Shown piece by piece: positions 19,209 through 21,571 of a stretch of 39,350 nt of DNA; positions within the stretch are counted from its first letter, which is position 1; the number at the start of each line of letters is the position of its first letter. This DNA is from Candidatus Omnitrophota bacterium (GTDB lineage Bacteria > Omnitrophota > Gorgyraeia > Aquiviventales > Aquiviventaceae), in contig JACQRG010000061.1 in assembly GCA_016206565.1 (NCBI GenBank), positions 1-39,350 on the forward strand, written 5' to 3'. The position numbers and the translations under genes were made by a program. Under the pieces are notes generated by a model. It worked only from the letters and a program-made list of their open reading frames with translations, searched no databases and was not told the DNA's origin.

Positions 19209-20027
19209 CTACGCGCCAACGACTTGTCCCTGCAGTTCCTGAAAGCTGCGGCGGACCAGCTCCCGGTCCACCCGCGTGGTCCGGTAGACGTAGCACGCCA
19301 GCAGCGAGCGGTCGCAAATCTGGTTGATGAGCCGCGGCGTGCCCTTGGAGCACCGGTAGACCTCCTGCGCCGCCTCGGCCGTCCACTGCACCGTGCCATC
19401 CGAGCCGGCTATGCGCAAGCGGTGATGGATGTAGGTGGTGACTTCCTCCGCATCGAGCGGCCCGATGTGATACCGCACCCCGATGCGCTGGCGCAGCTGC
19501 TCCAGCGCCGGGCGGGCCAGTTTCTCCCGCAGCTGCGGCTGGCCGACCAGGATGATCTGGATGAGCTTCTCCTTGTCGGTTTCCAGGTTCGAGAGCATGC
19601 GGATCTGCTCCAGCACGCGCAGGCTCAGGTTCTGCGCTTCGTCAATGATCAGGACGATGTTGTGGCCGATGGCCGCCTCATCGAGCAGGAACTGGTTGAG
19701 CTGCTCAAAGAGGTTCAGCCGGTTGGCGGTCATGGGGTTGAGGCCGAAATCCTTCACGACCGCGTAGAGCAGCTGCAGCTCCGAGAGGCCGGATTGCAGC
19801 ACGAGGGCGGTCTTCGTCGAGCCGTCGAGCTGGCGCAGCAGCGCCTTGCAGATAGTGGTCTTGCCGGTGCCGATGTCCCCGGTGATTTCGATGAACCCCT
19901 TGCGCTCGCGGATGCCGTAGACCATGTGCGCGAGCGCCTCGCGGTGCTTCTTGGAGAGGTAGAGAAAGGCAGGGTCGGACGTAATCGCGAAGGGTTTTTC
20001 ACGCAGGCCAAGATACTCGAGATACAT
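19209..20027 (-). CDS. ExeA/GspA/MshM-type AAA (AAA_22) ATPase
   Basis: The N-terminus is YLEYLGLREKPFAITSDPAFLYLSKKHREAL. Walker A is TGDIGTGKTT and Walker B is VLIIDEAQNL. At 272 aa it is the short form, with no peptidoglycan-binding domain. Confidence 0.85.
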   Translation of the reverse strand: MYLEYLGLREKPFAITSDPAFLYLSKKHREALAHMVYGIRERKGFIEITGDIGTGKTTICKALLRQLDGSTKTALVLQSGLSELQLLYAVVKDFGLNPMTANRLNLFEQLNQFLLDEAAIGHNIVLIIDEAQNLSLRVLEQIRMLSNLETDKEKLIQIILVGQPQLREKLARPALEQLRQRIGVRYHIGPLDAEEVTTYIHHRLRIAGSDGTVQWTAEAAQEVYRCSKGTPRLINQICDRSLLACYVYRTTRVDRELVRRSFQELQGQVVGA

Positions 20028-20039
20028 GGCGCTGCAGAT

Positions 20040-20068
20040 ATTCTACGCCCGGTGCAGACCCGGCGCAA
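20040..20068 (-). promoter_or_regulatory. Sigma70-type promoter for the ExeA-like operon: TTGCGC - 17 nt - TAGAAT (minus strand)
   Basis: Read on the minus strand: TTGCGC cgggtctgcaccgggcg TAGAAT, then 12 nt to the ATG at 20027. Confidence 0.5.
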
Positions 20069-20079
20069 GCGAGAAACCA

Positions 20080-20108
20080 TTGACAGGCCGCGGCGACGGT
20101 GCTAGCCT
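20080..20108 (+). promoter_or_regulatory. Sigma70-type promoter: TTGACA - 17 nt - (TGc)TAGCCT, ending 6 nt before the ATG (leaderless)
   Basis: Consensus -35 with an extended -10. The ATG at 20115 sits where transcription would start, and no SD is present. Confidence 0.55.
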
Positions 20109-20114
20109 GTTGCC

Positions 20115-20459
20115 ATGACCCCGGAGCGGCGCCTCCATCCTCGCGCTCGCGCTTACCGCCCGGTGCGGCTGCATCCCCGCGGCAGCCCGGCGGTGATTGA
20201 AACGCTGACCAAGGACCTCAGCGTCTGCGGCCTGCGCTGCCTGTGCCCCAAGCCGGTGCCGGTCGGCTTGCCGGTCAACGTCGAGCTGGTGCTTGGCCAG
20301 GGGCAGGAGCCGTTGTTCCTCGAGGGCAAGGCGGTGTGGTTCAGGACCCTGCCGGATAGCGAGCAATACGACCTCGGCGTCTCATTTCTTGACCTGAGCG
20401 AGCAAAAACGACGACGTCTGTCTGTGTATTTTGACTCTGTCGCAGCTGTTCCTGCCTAG
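20115..20459 (+). CDS. Single-domain PilZ protein (putative c-di-GMP receptor)
   Basis: RRLHPR (RxxxR) near the N-terminus and DLSVCG (D/NxSxxG) about 20 residues later. The size (114 aa) and beta-barrel pattern are typical of a stand-alone PilZ. Confidence 0.8.
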   Translation: MTPERRLHPRARAYRPVRLHPRGSPAVIETLTKDLSVCGLRCLCPKPVPVGLPVNVELVLGQGQEPLFLEGKAVWFRTLPDSEQYDLGVSFLDLSEQKRRRLSVYFDSVAAVPA

Positions 20460-20512
20460 TTTTCTGCAGAAGTAATATTATAACTCCTTGTAGTACAATA
20501 AGTTATATGATA

Positions 20513-20542
20513 TTGACTTTCCATGCTCCAATATGGTAGACT
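20513..20542 (+). promoter_or_regulatory. Sigma70-type promoter: TTGACT - 18 nt - (TGg)TAGACT in a ~30% GC island
   Basis: Near-consensus -35 and an extended -10. It lies ~80 nt upstream of a strong SD and ATG. Confidence 0.6.
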
Positions 20543-20549
20543 AGTGTCT
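20538..20549. promoter_or_regulatory. Inverted repeat AGAC-N4-GTCT overlapping the -10/transcription start (candidate operator 1)
   Basis: AGACtagtGTCT overlaps the TAGACT -10 hexamer. The same arms recur 55 bp downstream. Confidence 0.35.
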
Positions 20550-20589
20550 GATGGATGGCGGATAGGAGCGAAGGCCAACCCATCCACTC

Positions 20590-20607
20590 TCTAGACATAT
20601 GTCTAGA
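20590..20607. promoter_or_regulatory. 18-bp perfect palindrome TCTAGACATATGTCTAGA (contains AGAC-N4-GTCT), directly abutting the RBS (candidate operator 2 or UTR hairpin)
   Basis: Perfect dyad symmetry verified by eye. The SD GGAGG begins 4 nt after it. The palindrome itself is certain; its function is inferred. Confidence 0.4.
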
Positions 20608-20624
20608 AGAGGAGGTGAGAACGC

Positions 20625-20786
20625 ATGAAACTCGACCAGCATGTCATCACGGGTGTCTTTTTCGGGCTCGTGTTCGGAATGCATTACCACGGGCTGGACG
20701 CGTATAAGGACGTTCTCACGATCGTCGCCGTCGTCCTCGCGCTCGGTGTCGTGGGCGGGCTCAAGCTGGGCAAGCTGATCAAGTAA
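20625..20786 (+). CDS. Small (53 aa) two-TM membrane protein, below the length cutoff of the supplied ORF track
   Basis: SD GGAGG lies 9 nt before the ATG. Translation: MKLDQHVITGVFFGLVFGMHYHGLDAYKDVLTIVAVVLALGVVGGLKLGKLIK. Third-position GC is high like the bona fide genes although the flanks are AT-rich. The ORF is bracketed by a promoter and an intrinsic terminator. Confidence 0.6.
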   Translation: MKLDQHVITGVFFGLVFGMHYHGLDAYKDVLTIVAVVLALGVVGGLKLGKLIK

Positions 20787-20813
20787 GCCAGCAAGCCCAG
20801 GCACGGTTACGAC

Positions 20814-20854
20814 TCGGGGGCTGCTCTCCACTGGAGGGCAGCCCCCGATTTTTT
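20814..20854 (+). terminator. Rho-independent terminator
   Basis: GC-rich stem TCGGGGGCTGCTCTCC / GGAGGGCAGCCCCCGA followed by TTTTTT. It starts 28 nt after the small-ORF stop. Confidence 0.75.
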
Positions 20855-20856
20855 GC

Positions 20857-20885
20857 TTGCGTCCGTCGGTGAACGCCGCTATACT
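20857..20885 (+). promoter_or_regulatory. Sigma70-type promoter: TTGCGT - 17 nt - TATACT
   Basis: It lies immediately after the terminator T-tract and would direct transcription toward the 3' end of the convergent mazG gene. Confidence 0.4.
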
Positions 20886-20933
20886 GGTCCCGTCGTCGGC
20901 GCTGTTCGTTCACACCCCGAAAGGTGCGTTCCC

Positions 20934-21044
20934 GTGGTCCCGTTGTTCGACTTCGATCCTCGCCTCACCAACCTGGTGCTCGGCCTGGTAATCGGGCTCT
21001 GCCTGTCCCTGGTCTGGCACTGGGCGGCGTGGGCCCTGCACTAG
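20934..21044 (+). CDS. Possible 36-aa single-TM peptide (weak call)
   Basis: GTG at 20934 preceded by AAAGG. Translation: VVPLFDFDPRLTNLVLGLVIGLCLSLVWHWAAWALH. It lies downstream of the promoter above. The stop shares the CTAG tetranucleotide with the mazG stop. This could equally be a non-coding antisense transcript. Confidence 0.25.
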   Translation: MVPLFDFDPRLTNLVLGLVIGLCLSLVWHWAAWALH

Positions 21045-21571
21045 CCCCGCGCCAGCGCCCTGACCGCCCGCCGCAATCCGTCCGCAGCGCCGGGCCGGCG
21101 ATGCAGCAAGTCCCAGCACTCCACCAGCAGCGGCCGCAGCCGCTTGGACGCGGAGCGCGACCGAGTTTCCCGCCGTTTCACCGCCTGCCAGCGCCGGTAC
21201 GCCTCATCGGCTGACCTGGCCCGGACCCGGCCGAAGACATGGGGGTGGCGGCGGATCATCTTCCGGCGGGTGGCGCGCAGCAGCGAGCGCAGCGATCCCT
21301 GCCGGCGACGATCGGCCAGCAAGGCCAGGAAGACGACCGTGTAGAGCAGGTCGCCCAGCTCCTCTTCGAGCAGGGCGCGCTTGCCCCGGCCGCGGATGGT
21401 TTCGAACACTTCCCAGGTTTCCTCGATGAGGTAGGGCAGGAGCGACTCGACCGTCTGGGTCCGGTCCCAGGGGCAGCCGTCCGGCTCCAGCAGGCGCTGG
21501 GCCAGGGCCACCAGGTCCCAGAACGGGTCCCCTTGGGCCGGCGGGGGTATCGTGCGTGCGGTTTGACCCAT
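21041..21571 (-). CDS. mazG: MazG-family nucleoside triphosphate pyrophosphohydrolase
   Basis: GCPWDRTQT..SL..YLIEETWEVFE, EELGDLLY and RRHPHVFG. The start is set at the internal ATG 21571, giving a normal N-terminal length; an upstream ATG at 21637 is also possible. Confidence 0.85.
   Translation of the reverse strand: MGQTARTIPPPAQGDPFWDLVALAQRLLEPDGCPWDRTQTVESLLPYLIEETWEVFETIRGRGKRALLEEELGDLLYTVVFLALLADRRRQGSLRSLLRATRRKMIRRHPHVFGRVRARSADEAYRRWQAVKRRETRSRSASKRLRPLLVECWDLLHRRPGAADGLRRAVRALARG

What the first reader, a model, noticed from the sequence alone, without database searches (positions are those of the whole stretch)
20460..20860. AT-rich (~30% GC) island: strong promoter, twin AGAC-N4-GTCT dyads, 18-bp perfect palindrome at the RBS, unlisted 53-aa two-TM ORF, clean terminator
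In a ~68% GC background this 400-bp unit is a self-contained transcription unit. It has TTGACT-18-TGgTAGACT and a ~75-nt leader with a 7-bp stem (TGGATGG/CCATCCA). The dyad AGACtagtGTCT lies over the -10/TSS, and the same arms occur 55 bp (about 5 helical turns) downstream inside TCTAGACATATGTCTAGA, which ends 4 nt before the SD. The ORF is small and hydrophobic with a Lys-rich C-terminus (…GGLKLGKLIK). The layout resembles a tightly repressed membrane-active peptide (type I toxin-like, phage-shock or stress peptide, or holin-like). No cognate repressor gene is visible nearby. The ORF was missed by the supplied track because it is under 60 aa.
Basis: partly seen in the sequence, partly recalled or inferred. 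Interest (0 to 1): 0.6.

Follow-up and report, generated by a model that had tools for sequence, protein, structure and literature searches.

The report
Abundant small membrane protein gene, conserved palindrome
This is a real, self-contained and very strongly transcribed gene for an undescribed 53-residue two-helix membrane protein of groundwater Omnitrophota, and an invariant palindrome beside its ribosome-binding site is most likely a regulator's docking site, so it does not look like a silenced toxin.

Summary
Only the roughly 90-bp promoter is about 30% GC; the 400 bp as a whole is 52%.

The 53-aa ORF is a real gene. It belongs to a small, unannotated family of 45-55 aa glycine-zipper helical hairpins. 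It is under strong purifying selection. In about 45 Omnitrophota loci it lies in a fixed triad: PilZ, then this gene, then a 36-aa one-helix peptide gene.

The main palindrome, TAGAC-N4-GTCTA, lies next to the SD. Its arms are invariant and show no covariation, and its centre varies. The neighbouring leader hairpin covaries and carries GGAGG in its loop.

Extra copies or half-sites lie in untranscribed DNA:
- over the -10 element in the window and its closest relative;
- in the promoter spacer of at least 7 other loci;
- as a degenerate copy held by frozen rare codons inside the PilZ 3' end.

This pattern favours a DNA operator of an unidentified dimeric regulator (about 50%) over an RNA-level site (about 30%).

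Metatranscriptome contigs cover only this mRNA. In one groundwater run the summed depth reaches about 970 and the flanks read zero. The gene is therefore highly expressed in situ, not tightly repressed, and a type I toxin reading is unlikely.

The regulator and the protein's function remain unknown.

The parts
20115..20459 (+). PilZ-domain gene (114 aa; the RxxxR and DxSxxG c-di-GMP motifs are present). It is always the gene immediately upstream of p53.
   Evidence: Pfam PF07238, E 2e-13. It is syntenic in nearly all loci with enough flank.
20413..20423 (.). Degenerate third copy of the dyad (GAC-GTCT-GTCT; relatives have nGAC-GTTT-GTCT) embedded in the PilZ 3' coding end.
   Evidence: In 15 PilZ genes the codons here are frozen and unusual: R CGA/AGA, R CGT 13/14, L TTG 12/15, S TCT 15/15, Y TAT 14/14. 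Other conserved Arg, Ser and Tyr codons vary freely or take GC-rich forms.
20479..20507 (.). AT-rich near-palindrome upstream of the -35 (TATAACTCCTTGTA-g-TACAATAAGTTATA). The arms TAACW..WGTTA recur in relatives.
   Evidence: TAACT/AGTTA is present in 22 of 34 promoters. It is kept even in the distant 46-aa clade L191. Its function was not tested (UP-like element or regulator site).
20513..20542 (+). Sigma-70-type promoter: -35 TTGACT, 18-nt spacer, extended -10 TGgTAGACT.
   Evidence: Relatives have TTGCYA-17/18-TRTGGTATAGT at the same place.
20538..20549 (.). Dyad 1, (T)AGAC-tagt-GTCT, over the -10 element and the predicted transcription start.
   Evidence: It is shared only with L001, where the centre differs (TATC) but the arms are kept. 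It is mostly untranscribed DNA.
20552..20586 (+). Leader hairpin HP1 (outer stem TGGATGG/CCATCCA, with AGGAG in the apical region).
   Evidence: Hairpins at the same place in 28 leaders have different sequences. Own-pair energy is -16.5 kcal/mol against -11.8 for chimeras, with mean z -2.4. The loop consensus is YNGGAGGA. In the window itself the fold is weak (z -0.3).
20590..20607 (.). Main palindrome HP2/O: TCTAGAC-atat-GTCTAGA (core TAGAC-N4-GTCTA).
   Evidence: The arms are invariant in 28 aligned leaders: 7 pairs, 0 compensatory changes, variable centre. Of 14 occurrences in 674 kb of fetched loci, 12 lie in this leader. All 13 Omnitrophota matches to CTAGACAAAYGTCTAGA among 185,579 genomes precede a p53 gene. 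It is transcribed.
20608..20618 (+). Shine-Dalgarno region AGAGGAGGTGA.
   Evidence: Conserved as GGAGGTGA in essentially all relatives, 6-9 nt before the ATG.
20625..20786 (+). p53 gene: a 53-aa helical-hairpin membrane protein with a GxxxGxxxG zipper in helix 1 and a basic C-terminus.
   Evidence: ORF. Homologues lie in syntenic loci. The family has 34 clusters among 1.84 billion representatives. dN/dS is about 0.02. The AF2 model has helices 5-20 and 28-52, pLDDT 69. An RNA contig covers 20576-20789 and differs by two changes at third codon positions, which are synonymous.
20814..20854 (+). Intrinsic terminator (16-pair stem, then T6).
   Evidence: Relatives have a structurally equivalent G+C-rich hairpin plus T-run with a different sequence.
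20857..20885 (+). Promoter of the partner gene p36 (TTGCGT-17-TATACT), with CCGTCGGTG in the spacer.
   Evidence: Read. Relatives have TTGAC-17-TATAAT-like promoters at the same place, with a CGTCG(G/A) motif in both the spacer and the leader.
20934..21044 (+). p36 gene: a 36-aa single-helix peptide (..NPRxPDxxLGLxIGLxLALxWHW..).
   Evidence: tblastn hits at 45-79% identity directly downstream of p53 in nearly all loci.

Best explanation
The stretch is an autonomous, very strongly expressed gene for a previously undescribed small inner-membrane protein, here called p53. The protein is 45-55 aa and forms a two-helix hairpin, with a GxxxGxxxG zipper in helix 1 and a basic C-terminus. It is vertically inherited in a clade of Omnitrophota as the middle gene of a PilZ - p53 - p36 triad.

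Shown:
- The gene is real and under purifying selection.
- It has a near-consensus extended -10 promoter and its own terminator.
- Its mRNA, including the leader, is abundant in environmental RNA while its neighbours are undetected.
- The leader holds two different elements. One is a covarying RNA hairpin with an SD-like GGAGG loop. The other is a sequence-invariant palindrome, TAGAC-N4-GTCTA, next to the SD.

Inferred:
- The palindrome is the primary operator of an unidentified dimeric DNA-binding regulator.
- Weaker auxiliary copies lie over the -10 element (this window), in the promoter spacer (other lineages) and inside the PilZ 3' end.
- Occupancy would block or loop the promoter and leader. 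In the sampled habitats the gene would then be in its derepressed state.
- The GGAGG hairpin probably acts on the RNA, as a ribosome standby or stabiliser site or a CsrA-type site, to support high output.

The protein's biochemical role is not known. The most likely role is an abundant oligomerising membrane micro-protein that works with p36.
For: Gene reality:
- Syntenic homologues exist.
- dN/dS is about 0.02 with saturated dS.
- Both differences in the RNA contig are at third codon positions and are synonymous.
- AF2 predicts a helical hairpin.

Expression:
- A 218-nt contig at 20576-20789 is the only near-identical transcript in the 39 kb.
- In run X6, 44 contigs with summed depth up to about 970 lie only on the leader and p53 of L083. 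The flanks read 0.

DNA-operator reading of the palindrome:
- Seven stem pairs are invariant in 28 leaders, with no compensatory change and a variable centre. The adjacent HP1 keeps its structure at 56% sequence identity. That is the pattern of conserved half-sites plus a free spacer.
- Copies exist in untranscribed DNA. A dyad lies over the -10 in the window and L001. TAGAC(AAA) lies 21 nt before the -10 end in L088, L096, L098/L153, L105, L113 and L155, lies next to TGTGG in L193, and lies upstream of the -35 in L102.
- Frozen rare codons form nGAC-GTTT-GTCT in the PilZ 3' end.
- L016 has two tandem full sites.
- The site is dedicated to this gene: all 13 Omnitrophota exact matches precede p53.
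Against: - No regulator was identified. None is encoded in the conserved neighbourhood.
- The palindrome keeps a fixed 2-5 nt distance to the SD, while its distance to the -10 falls in classes of about 17, 50 and 69 nt. It is transcribed.
- L014 shows one C-G to A-U double change and L013 a U-G wobble in the outer stem. These fit an RNA-level role.
- Very high in-situ expression is not what a constitutively repressed gene shows.
- Auxiliary sites are patchy. TAGAC or GTCTA occurs in the promoter region of 11 of 34 loci, against about 5-6 expected, and the loci are phylogenetically non-independent. Their spacings show no clear helical phasing.
- Contig depth is a poor measure of expression, and the RNA contigs carry no strand information.
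Confidence: 0.5

Rival explanations
1. The palindrome works on the mRNA. It would be a 7-bp hairpin immediately 5' of the SD, recognised by an RNA-binding protein or a nuclease, or acting as a 5' stabiliser or translation element. Together with the GGAGG-loop hairpin it would give the message its high stability and translation. The DNA copies elsewhere would be incidental.
For: - It is transcribed.
- It keeps a fixed distance to the SD whatever the leader length.
- It folds as a stable hairpin in every leader.
- L014 has a compensatory change and L013 a wobble in the outer stem.
- The message is very abundant.
- The element is dedicated to this one gene.
Against: - The stem sequence is invariant and the loop free. 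This is the reverse of what is usual for RNA-protein recognition, and unlike HP1 next to it, which covaries.
- Copies and half-sites in untranscribed promoter DNA, and the frozen codons in PilZ, have no role in this model.
- SD accessibility in predicted ensembles is inconsistent, 0.01-0.86, so no conserved switch is evident.
Confidence: 0.3
2. This is a type I toxin-like, or otherwise tightly silenced, membrane-active peptide. The peptide would be harmful and kept off by the dyads and/or an antisense RNA.
For: - It is a small hydrophobic two-helix peptide with a basic tail.
- It has operator-like dyads.
- It belongs to no annotated family.
Against: - It is abundantly transcribed in three environmental RNA data sets.
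- It is found once per locus and strictly syntenic across a deep clade.
- dN/dS is about 0.02.
- No promoter-like site lies on the opposite strand.
- No conserved antisense element lies in the variable 3' region.
Confidence: 0.05
3. The leader is a CsrA/RsmA-type translational control region. One GGA sits in the apical loop of HP1 and a second in the SD, and the two are bridged by a CsrA dimer. This could coexist with either reading of the palindrome.
For: - GGA or GGAGG lies in the apical region of HP1 in most of the 28 HP1-bearing leaders; L011 (GGAAGAA) and L152 (TGAAGAAG) depart from it. Several loops read GGAUG, as in the recalled CsrA SELEX consensus.
- The loop-to-SD distance of about 45-50 nt is within the range recalled for dual-site binding.
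Against:
- GGAGG is equally an anti-16S (SD-like) sequence.
- HP1 is absent from several lineages that keep the palindrome (L003, L007, L083, L016).
Confidence: 0.15

Closest known systems
Multi-operator repression with auxiliary sites around a promoter (E. coli gal OE/OI, lac O1/O2/O3), recalled from general knowledge
   Same: There is one strong palindromic site with conserved half-sites and a free centre. It lies downstream of the start, with weaker copies at or upstream of the core promoter.
   Different: - No regulator is known.
- The main site abuts the SD at about +50.
- The auxiliary sites are lineage-specific.
- No helical phasing is evident.
- The gene is highly expressed in situ.
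LexA-controlled type I toxins such as tisB/istR-1 and dinQ, and hok/sok-type loci
   Same: A very small hydrophobic membrane peptide behind an operator-bearing promoter with a structured leader.
   Different: - No antisense RNA or promoter was found.
- The gene is found once per locus and syntenic, and is vertically inherited.
- The mRNA is abundant.
- Purifying selection is strong.
- AGAC-N4-GTCT is not a LexA box of any type I can recall.
Small stress or housekeeping membrane proteins with glycine zippers (Pmp3/YqaE PF01679, GlsB/YeaQ/YmgE PF04226, YMGG-like Gly-zipper PF13441)
   Same: The size (about 50 aa), two hydrophobic helices and GxxxG-type packing motifs.
   Different: There is no significant profile match. 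The best is a single member at E 0.022 to PF13441. The family is distinct and restricted to about 34 clusters.
5' leader stabilisers or standby sites with SD-like sequences (B. thuringiensis cryIIIA STAB-SD) and CsrA-bound leaders (B. subtilis hag), recalled from general knowledge
   Same: An SD-like GGAGG or GGA is exposed in a 5' hairpin upstream of the true SD of a highly expressed message.
   Different: It has not been tested. Here the hairpin is followed by a second, sequence-invariant palindrome, which those systems lack.

Membership tests
Type I toxin-antitoxin locus | Small hydrophobic membrane peptide ORF | tested here: met
   53 aa, with two predicted helices at 5-20 and 28-52.
Type I toxin-antitoxin locus | Antisense or overlapping regulatory RNA with its own promoter | tested here: not met
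   No promoter-like site lies on the minus strand in 19800-21400. The 3' region shows no conserved sequence apart from the terminator structure. The RNA contigs are unstranded, so an antisense RNA is not formally excluded.
Type I toxin-antitoxin locus | Toxin kept translationally or transcriptionally silent; patchy, often multicopy distribution | tested here: not met
   The mRNA is abundant. The gene is found once per locus, in fixed PilZ-p53-p36 synteny, in about 45 loci.
Type I toxin-antitoxin locus | Toxicity on expression | not testable with these tools
   Needs induction in a laboratory strain.
Phage holin | Match to holin families, or neighbouring endolysin/spanin genes | tested here: not met
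   The only PHROG matches are to unannotated families, at E of 0.011 or weaker. The neighbours are PilZ, p36 and MazG.
Phage-shock (psp) regulon member | Sigma-54 promoter with a PspF-type activator | tested here: not met
   The promoter is sigma-70-type with an extended -10.
Known cis-regulatory RNA (Rfam) | Covariance-model match at or near the gathering score | tested here: not met
   Only sub-threshold chance hits on the terminator. Nothing was found in the leaders of 12 relatives.
Known small-membrane-protein families (Pfam, NCBIfam) | Profile match above the curated cut-off | tested here: not met
   The best match is one member to PF13441 at E 0.022.
Repressor-operator system | Dyad with conserved half-sites and a variable centre, conserved across orthologous promoters | tested here: met
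   The arms are invariant in 28 leaders. The centre is ATAT, ATTT, AAAC, AAAT, AAAA, ATCT or GGAT.
Repressor-operator system | Site or sites overlapping the core promoter or otherwise in untranscribed DNA | tested here: inconclusive
   This holds in the window and L001 (over the -10), in at least 7 loci (spacer half-site) and in the PilZ 3' end (frozen codons). It does not hold in all lineages.
Repressor-operator system | Cognate DNA-binding protein | not testable with these tools
CsrA-regulated leader | GGA in a hairpin loop plus GGA overlapping the SD | tested here: met
CsrA-regulated leader | csrA present in the genome | not tested

The most novel reading that the evidence does not exclude
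The PilZ protein encoded immediately upstream in virtually every locus is, or directly partners with, the factor that reads the TAGAC-N4-GTCTA sites. One of those sites is frozen into the PilZ gene's own 3' codons. c-di-GMP would then set the level of one of the most abundant messages of these ultra-small bacteria. That message encodes a new membrane micro-protein pair (p53 and p36) that could be a major envelope component.
Probability: 0.1. Interest if true: 0.75.

Novelty: new variant of a known kind. Interest (0 to 1): 0.42.

Why it matters
Omnitrophota are uncultured, often ultra-small bacteria, and their regulation is essentially unknown.

This locus offers four things:
- An undescribed small-membrane-protein family, with a conserved partner peptide. 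Its message dominates the organism's signal in environmental RNA.
- A compact native strong promoter and leader, usable as an expression signal for this phylum.
- A clean natural contrast between two neighbouring elements. One hairpin evolves like an RNA structure. One palindrome evolves like a protein-binding DNA site. This makes the DNA-versus-RNA question directly testable.
- An example of a regulatory motif held in place by frozen rare codons inside the neighbouring gene.

The finding is moderately interesting. The kind of system, an operator-controlled small gene, is ordinary, and the function is still unknown.

Tried and rejected
- Riboswitch or known RNA family: Rfam found nothing in the window or in 12 relatives.
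- SD-sequestering switch: the predicted unpaired probability of the SD ranges from 0.01 to 0.86 across leaders, with no consistent alternative pairing.
- Leader peptide in HP1 (GGAGGTGATG in some loops): rejected. The SD-to-ATG spacing is only 2 nt and no reading frame is conserved.
- RNA-RNA pairing between the PilZ 3' element and the palindrome: it fits the AAAC-centre majority. The centres do not covary in the window, L003 or L010, so I did not adopt it.
- Global regulon: the exact 17-mer CTAGACAAAYGTCTAGA in 185,579 genomes gave 76 loci. Every Omnitrophota hit precedes p53. The other hits are a conserved Nitrosopumilus coding sequence, a repeat at contig ends of one Armatimonadia MAG, and scattered intergenic palindromes, at or below chance expectation.
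- Synthetic-construct suspicion (PstI, SpeI, XbaI-NdeI-XbaI sites): rejected. The same elements occur in dozens of independent environmental assemblies.
- Helical phasing of the sites: the centre-to-centre or site-start spacings are 55, 69-72 and 19 bp, and show no consistent phase.
- Literature search for a TAGAC/GTCTA operator: nothing relevant.
- The search for related loci with the single peptide in genome contigs found nothing. The window's own genome is not in that collection.
- The 13-member alignment was too variable for the metagenome scan, so a 5-member subset was used instead.
Full report
**1. What is in the sequence**

- A sigma-70-type promoter, TTGACT(20513)-18-TGgTAGACT(20542), is the only such site in 19800-21400.
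- AGAC-N4-GTCT occurs only twice in the 39 kb, at 20538-20549 and 20593-20604. Shuffles give 0.28 expected.
- The second dyad sits inside the perfect 18-bp palindrome TCTAGACATATGTCTAGA, 20590-20607.
- GGAGG follows 3 nt after the palindrome, and the ATG is at 20625.
- A 53-aa ORF ends at 20786.
- A 16-pair hairpin plus T6 forms a clean terminator at 20814-20854.

The low-GC claim needs trimming. The window is 70% GC. The stretch 20460-20550 is 32% GC, but the whole 400 bp is 52% and the ORF has GC3 of 0.83.

Two things were missed. One is a 29-bp AT-rich near-palindrome upstream of the -35, at 20479-20507. The other is a degenerate dyad copy in the end of the preceding gene (section 4).

**2. 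Whose gene it is**

The neighbours are an ExeA-like ATPase (divergent strand), a PilZ-domain gene directly upstream, and MazG and HIT genes downstream. Relatives of the ATPase place the window in high-GC groundwater Candidatus Omnitrophota.

The peptide has only one close database relative, at 84% identity. That relative's 1.2-kb contig, L001, has the same gene order.

tblastn over the fetched Omnitrophota loci, a metagenome scan and a profile search add the following:
- The family comprises 45-55 aa proteins in 34 clusters at 50% identity among 1.84 billion representatives.
- The consensus is MK..(D)hLTGhhhGxhhGhxYP....YK.hLVh..VhhGLKhV..K, with three invariant glycines spaced i, i+4, i+8.
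- Wherever there is enough flank, the order is PilZ, then p53, then a 36-aa single-helix peptide (p36, 20934-21044 here). p36 has its own TTGAC-17-TATAAT-like promoter straight after the p53 terminator.

No Pfam or NCBIfam model matches, and the only PHROG hits are weak (E of 0.011 or weaker) to unannotated families. AlphaFold2 gives two helices, 5-20 and 28-52, at moderate confidence (pLDDT 69).

Between the window and L001 there are 29 synonymous and 9 non-synonymous differences. dS is about 3.3 (saturated), dN is 0.08, and dN/dS is about 0.02. This is a real protein-coding gene under strong constraint.

**3. Expression**

A freshwater metatranscriptome (X5) holds a 218-nt contig that is 99% identical to 20576-20789. 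That span covers the leader from inside the first hairpin, the palindrome, the SD and the whole ORF. Its two differences are at third codon positions and are synonymous.

Laying the same run on the whole window gives no other long near-identical piece. The rest are 40-75-nt fragments at 90-95% identity from other organisms.

In a groundwater metatranscriptome (X6), 44 contigs at 85-99% identity, from several strains, lie only on the leader and p53 of relative L083 (positions 361-600). Their summed depth reaches about 970. The PilZ and downstream flanks read zero.

Loose ends of such contigs carry the 3' strands of other lineages' first hairpin joined to the palindrome. The whole leader is therefore transcribed.

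Contig depth is a crude measure and the contigs are unstranded. Even so, the picture is of one of the most abundant messages of these organisms, not a silenced gene.

**4. Anatomy of the control region across about 45 loci**

(a) Promoter. TTGCYA-17/18-TRTGGTATAGT is nearly invariant.

(b) AT-rich inverted repeat. TAACW...WGTTA is centred 50-60 bp before the -10 end. It is present in most loci, even in the distant 46-aa clade.

(c) First hairpin, HP1.
- It is about 35-42 nt and starts about 5 nt into the transcript.
- Its sequence differs between lineages (56% mean identity), but pairing is kept. Own 5'/3' halves fold to -16.5 kcal/mol on average, against -11.8 for chimeras. Mean z against shuffles is -2.4.
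- Its apical region reads YNGGAGGA in most of the 28 leaders.
In the window itself the inner part is weak (z -0.3).
- HP1 is missing in L003, L007, L083, L016 and L096.

(d) The palindrome.
- In 28 aligned leaders all seven stem pairs are essentially invariant, with no compensatory change. The four central bases vary: ATAT, ATTT, AAAC, AAAT, AAAA, ATCT or GGAT.
- Only L013 and L014 change an outer pair (C-G to A-U, plus one U-G), and L091 has two single changes.
- It is lost in L012 and the L191 clade and is degenerate in L005.

(e) The SD GGAGGTGA follows the palindrome by 2-5 nt. L010 is the exception, with an insert of about 20 nt.

**5. DNA site or RNA hairpin?**

The contrast between (c) and (d) is the key observation. 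Two adjacent stems in the same transcript evolve in opposite ways. HP1 behaves like an RNA structure: pairing is kept and sequence is free. The palindrome behaves like a protein-binding dyad: half-sites are fixed and the centre is free.

Copies of the dyad also occur where no RNA is made from this promoter.
- In the window and L001 a full AGAC-N4-GTCT lies over the -10 element and the start. The arms are kept and the centre differs (TAGT against TATC).
- In L088, L096, L098/L153, L105, L113 and L155 a half-site TAGAC(AAA) lies in the promoter spacer, exactly 21 nt before the -10 end. In L193 it abuts the TGTGG. In L102 it lies upstream of the -35.
- L016 has two full sites 19 bp apart, both within the transcribed leader.

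A codon alignment of 15 PilZ genes gives a third line of evidence.
- Conserved residues normally use mixed, GC-rich synonymous codons.
- The C-terminal R-R-L-S..Y stretch is frozen as CGA/AGA-CGT-TTG-TCT..TAT. Ser is TCT in 15 of 15, and Tyr here is TAT in 14 of 14, whereas Tyr14 is TAC in 14 of 14.
- These codons spell nGAC-GTTT-GTCT, a degenerate copy of the dyad about 125 bp upstream of the start (20413-20423 in the window).

These points favour a DNA operator with auxiliary sites. Against it:
- The palindrome keeps a fixed distance to the SD, not to the promoter. Its start lies about 17, 50 or 69 nt after the -10 end.
- It is transcribed.
- The gene is highly expressed.
- The auxiliary sites are patchy. 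TAGAC or GTCTA occurs in the promoter region of 11 of 34 loci, against about 5-6 expected, and the loci are related.
- No helical phasing is evident.
- No regulator is known.

I put the operator reading at about 50%, a purely RNA-level role at about 30%, and the rest on both or neither.

A scan of 185,579 species genomes for CTAGACAAAYGTCTAGA found 13 Omnitrophota matches, every one in front of a p53 gene. At perfect-match level the element is dedicated to this gene and does not mark a regulon.

**6. What the GGAGG hairpin may do**

An SD-like sequence displayed in a 5' hairpin ahead of the true SD resembles ribosome standby or STAB-SD-type stabilisers. It also resembles two-site CsrA leaders (recalled knowledge, not tested). 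Predicted SD accessibility varies from 0.01 to 0.86 across leaders, with no conserved alternative pairing, so a riboswitch-like SD trap is not supported. Rfam has no match.

**7. Comparison and verdict**

- The type I toxin, holin and phage-shock ideas each fail defining features that could be tested. There is no antisense promoter. The gene is found once per locus, syntenic and abundantly expressed. It has no holin or lysis context, and its promoter is sigma-70-type.
- The closest functional analogy for the cis-elements is multi-operator repression, as at gal or lac. For the protein it is the small glycine-zipper membrane proteins. In neither case is membership shown.
- The locus is best described as a new small-membrane-protein family with an unusually elaborate, well-conserved control region. 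It is a new variant of a known kind and of moderate interest.
- The most novel reading that remains open is that the invariably adjacent PilZ protein links c-di-GMP to this operator (about 10%).

Noticed in passing
window 20863-20871 and 20889-20901: The p36 promoter carries CCGTCGGTG in its -35/-10 spacer, and a related CCCGTCGTCGGCG in its leader. Relatives show the same two-place CGTCG(G/A)/GTCGAC motif (for example L003, L007, L008 and L001). This suggests a second, different operator pair for the partner gene.
   Followed up: partly
L017:8026-8039: A further TAGACTTTTGTCTA lies in a more distant Omnitrophota MAG that has no p53 at the syntenic place. On the minus strand it sits immediately upstream of a TTGACA-17-TACAAT promoter, in front of a 192-aa ORF, next to plsY. 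One such hit is expected by chance in 674 kb.
   Followed up: partly
L118:7815-7860: A Patescibacteria MAG has the same arrangement: an extended -10 (ATGTGGTATACT) followed 14 nt later by CTAGACAAATGTCTAGA. It lies upstream of a GT2-like glycosyltransferase gene. This could be chance or a shared regulator type.
   Followed up: no
L121, L130, L136, L158, L166 (Armatimonadia MAG 5_bin.152): The same palindrome, CTAGACAAATGTCTAGAC, recurs about 50-120 nt from the fetched stretch or contig ends, within identical flanking sequence. It looks like the end of a repeated, probably mobile, element.
   Followed up: no
about 20 Nitrosopumilaceae loci, for example L122, L126, L143: CTAGACAAATGTCTAGA lies inside a conserved stretch that looks like protein-coding sequence. 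It accounts for roughly a quarter of the hits from the genome-wide pattern scan and is unrelated to the Omnitrophota element.
   Followed up: no
L193:1-1160: In one distant family member the PilZ gene upstream of p53 is replaced by transposase-associated fragments (DDE_Tnp_1_assoc). The promoter, spacer TAGAC, HP1, palindrome and p36 are all retained. The control region therefore does not need PilZ in cis.
   Followed up: partly
L096:700-800: This leader has lost HP1 and the left half of the palindrome. That leaves TAGAC in the promoter spacer and GTCTA just after the -10, with 19 nt between them (start-to-start 24 nt). It looks like a natural deletion variant and would be useful for testing what the half-sites do.
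   Followed up: no
L155:2090-2150 and L005 leader: In these two leaders the GGAGG of HP1 is paired with, or accompanied by, a CCUCC/CACCUCC anti-SD-like sequence. Some lineages may therefore have an SD-masking variant of the leader.
   Followed up: no
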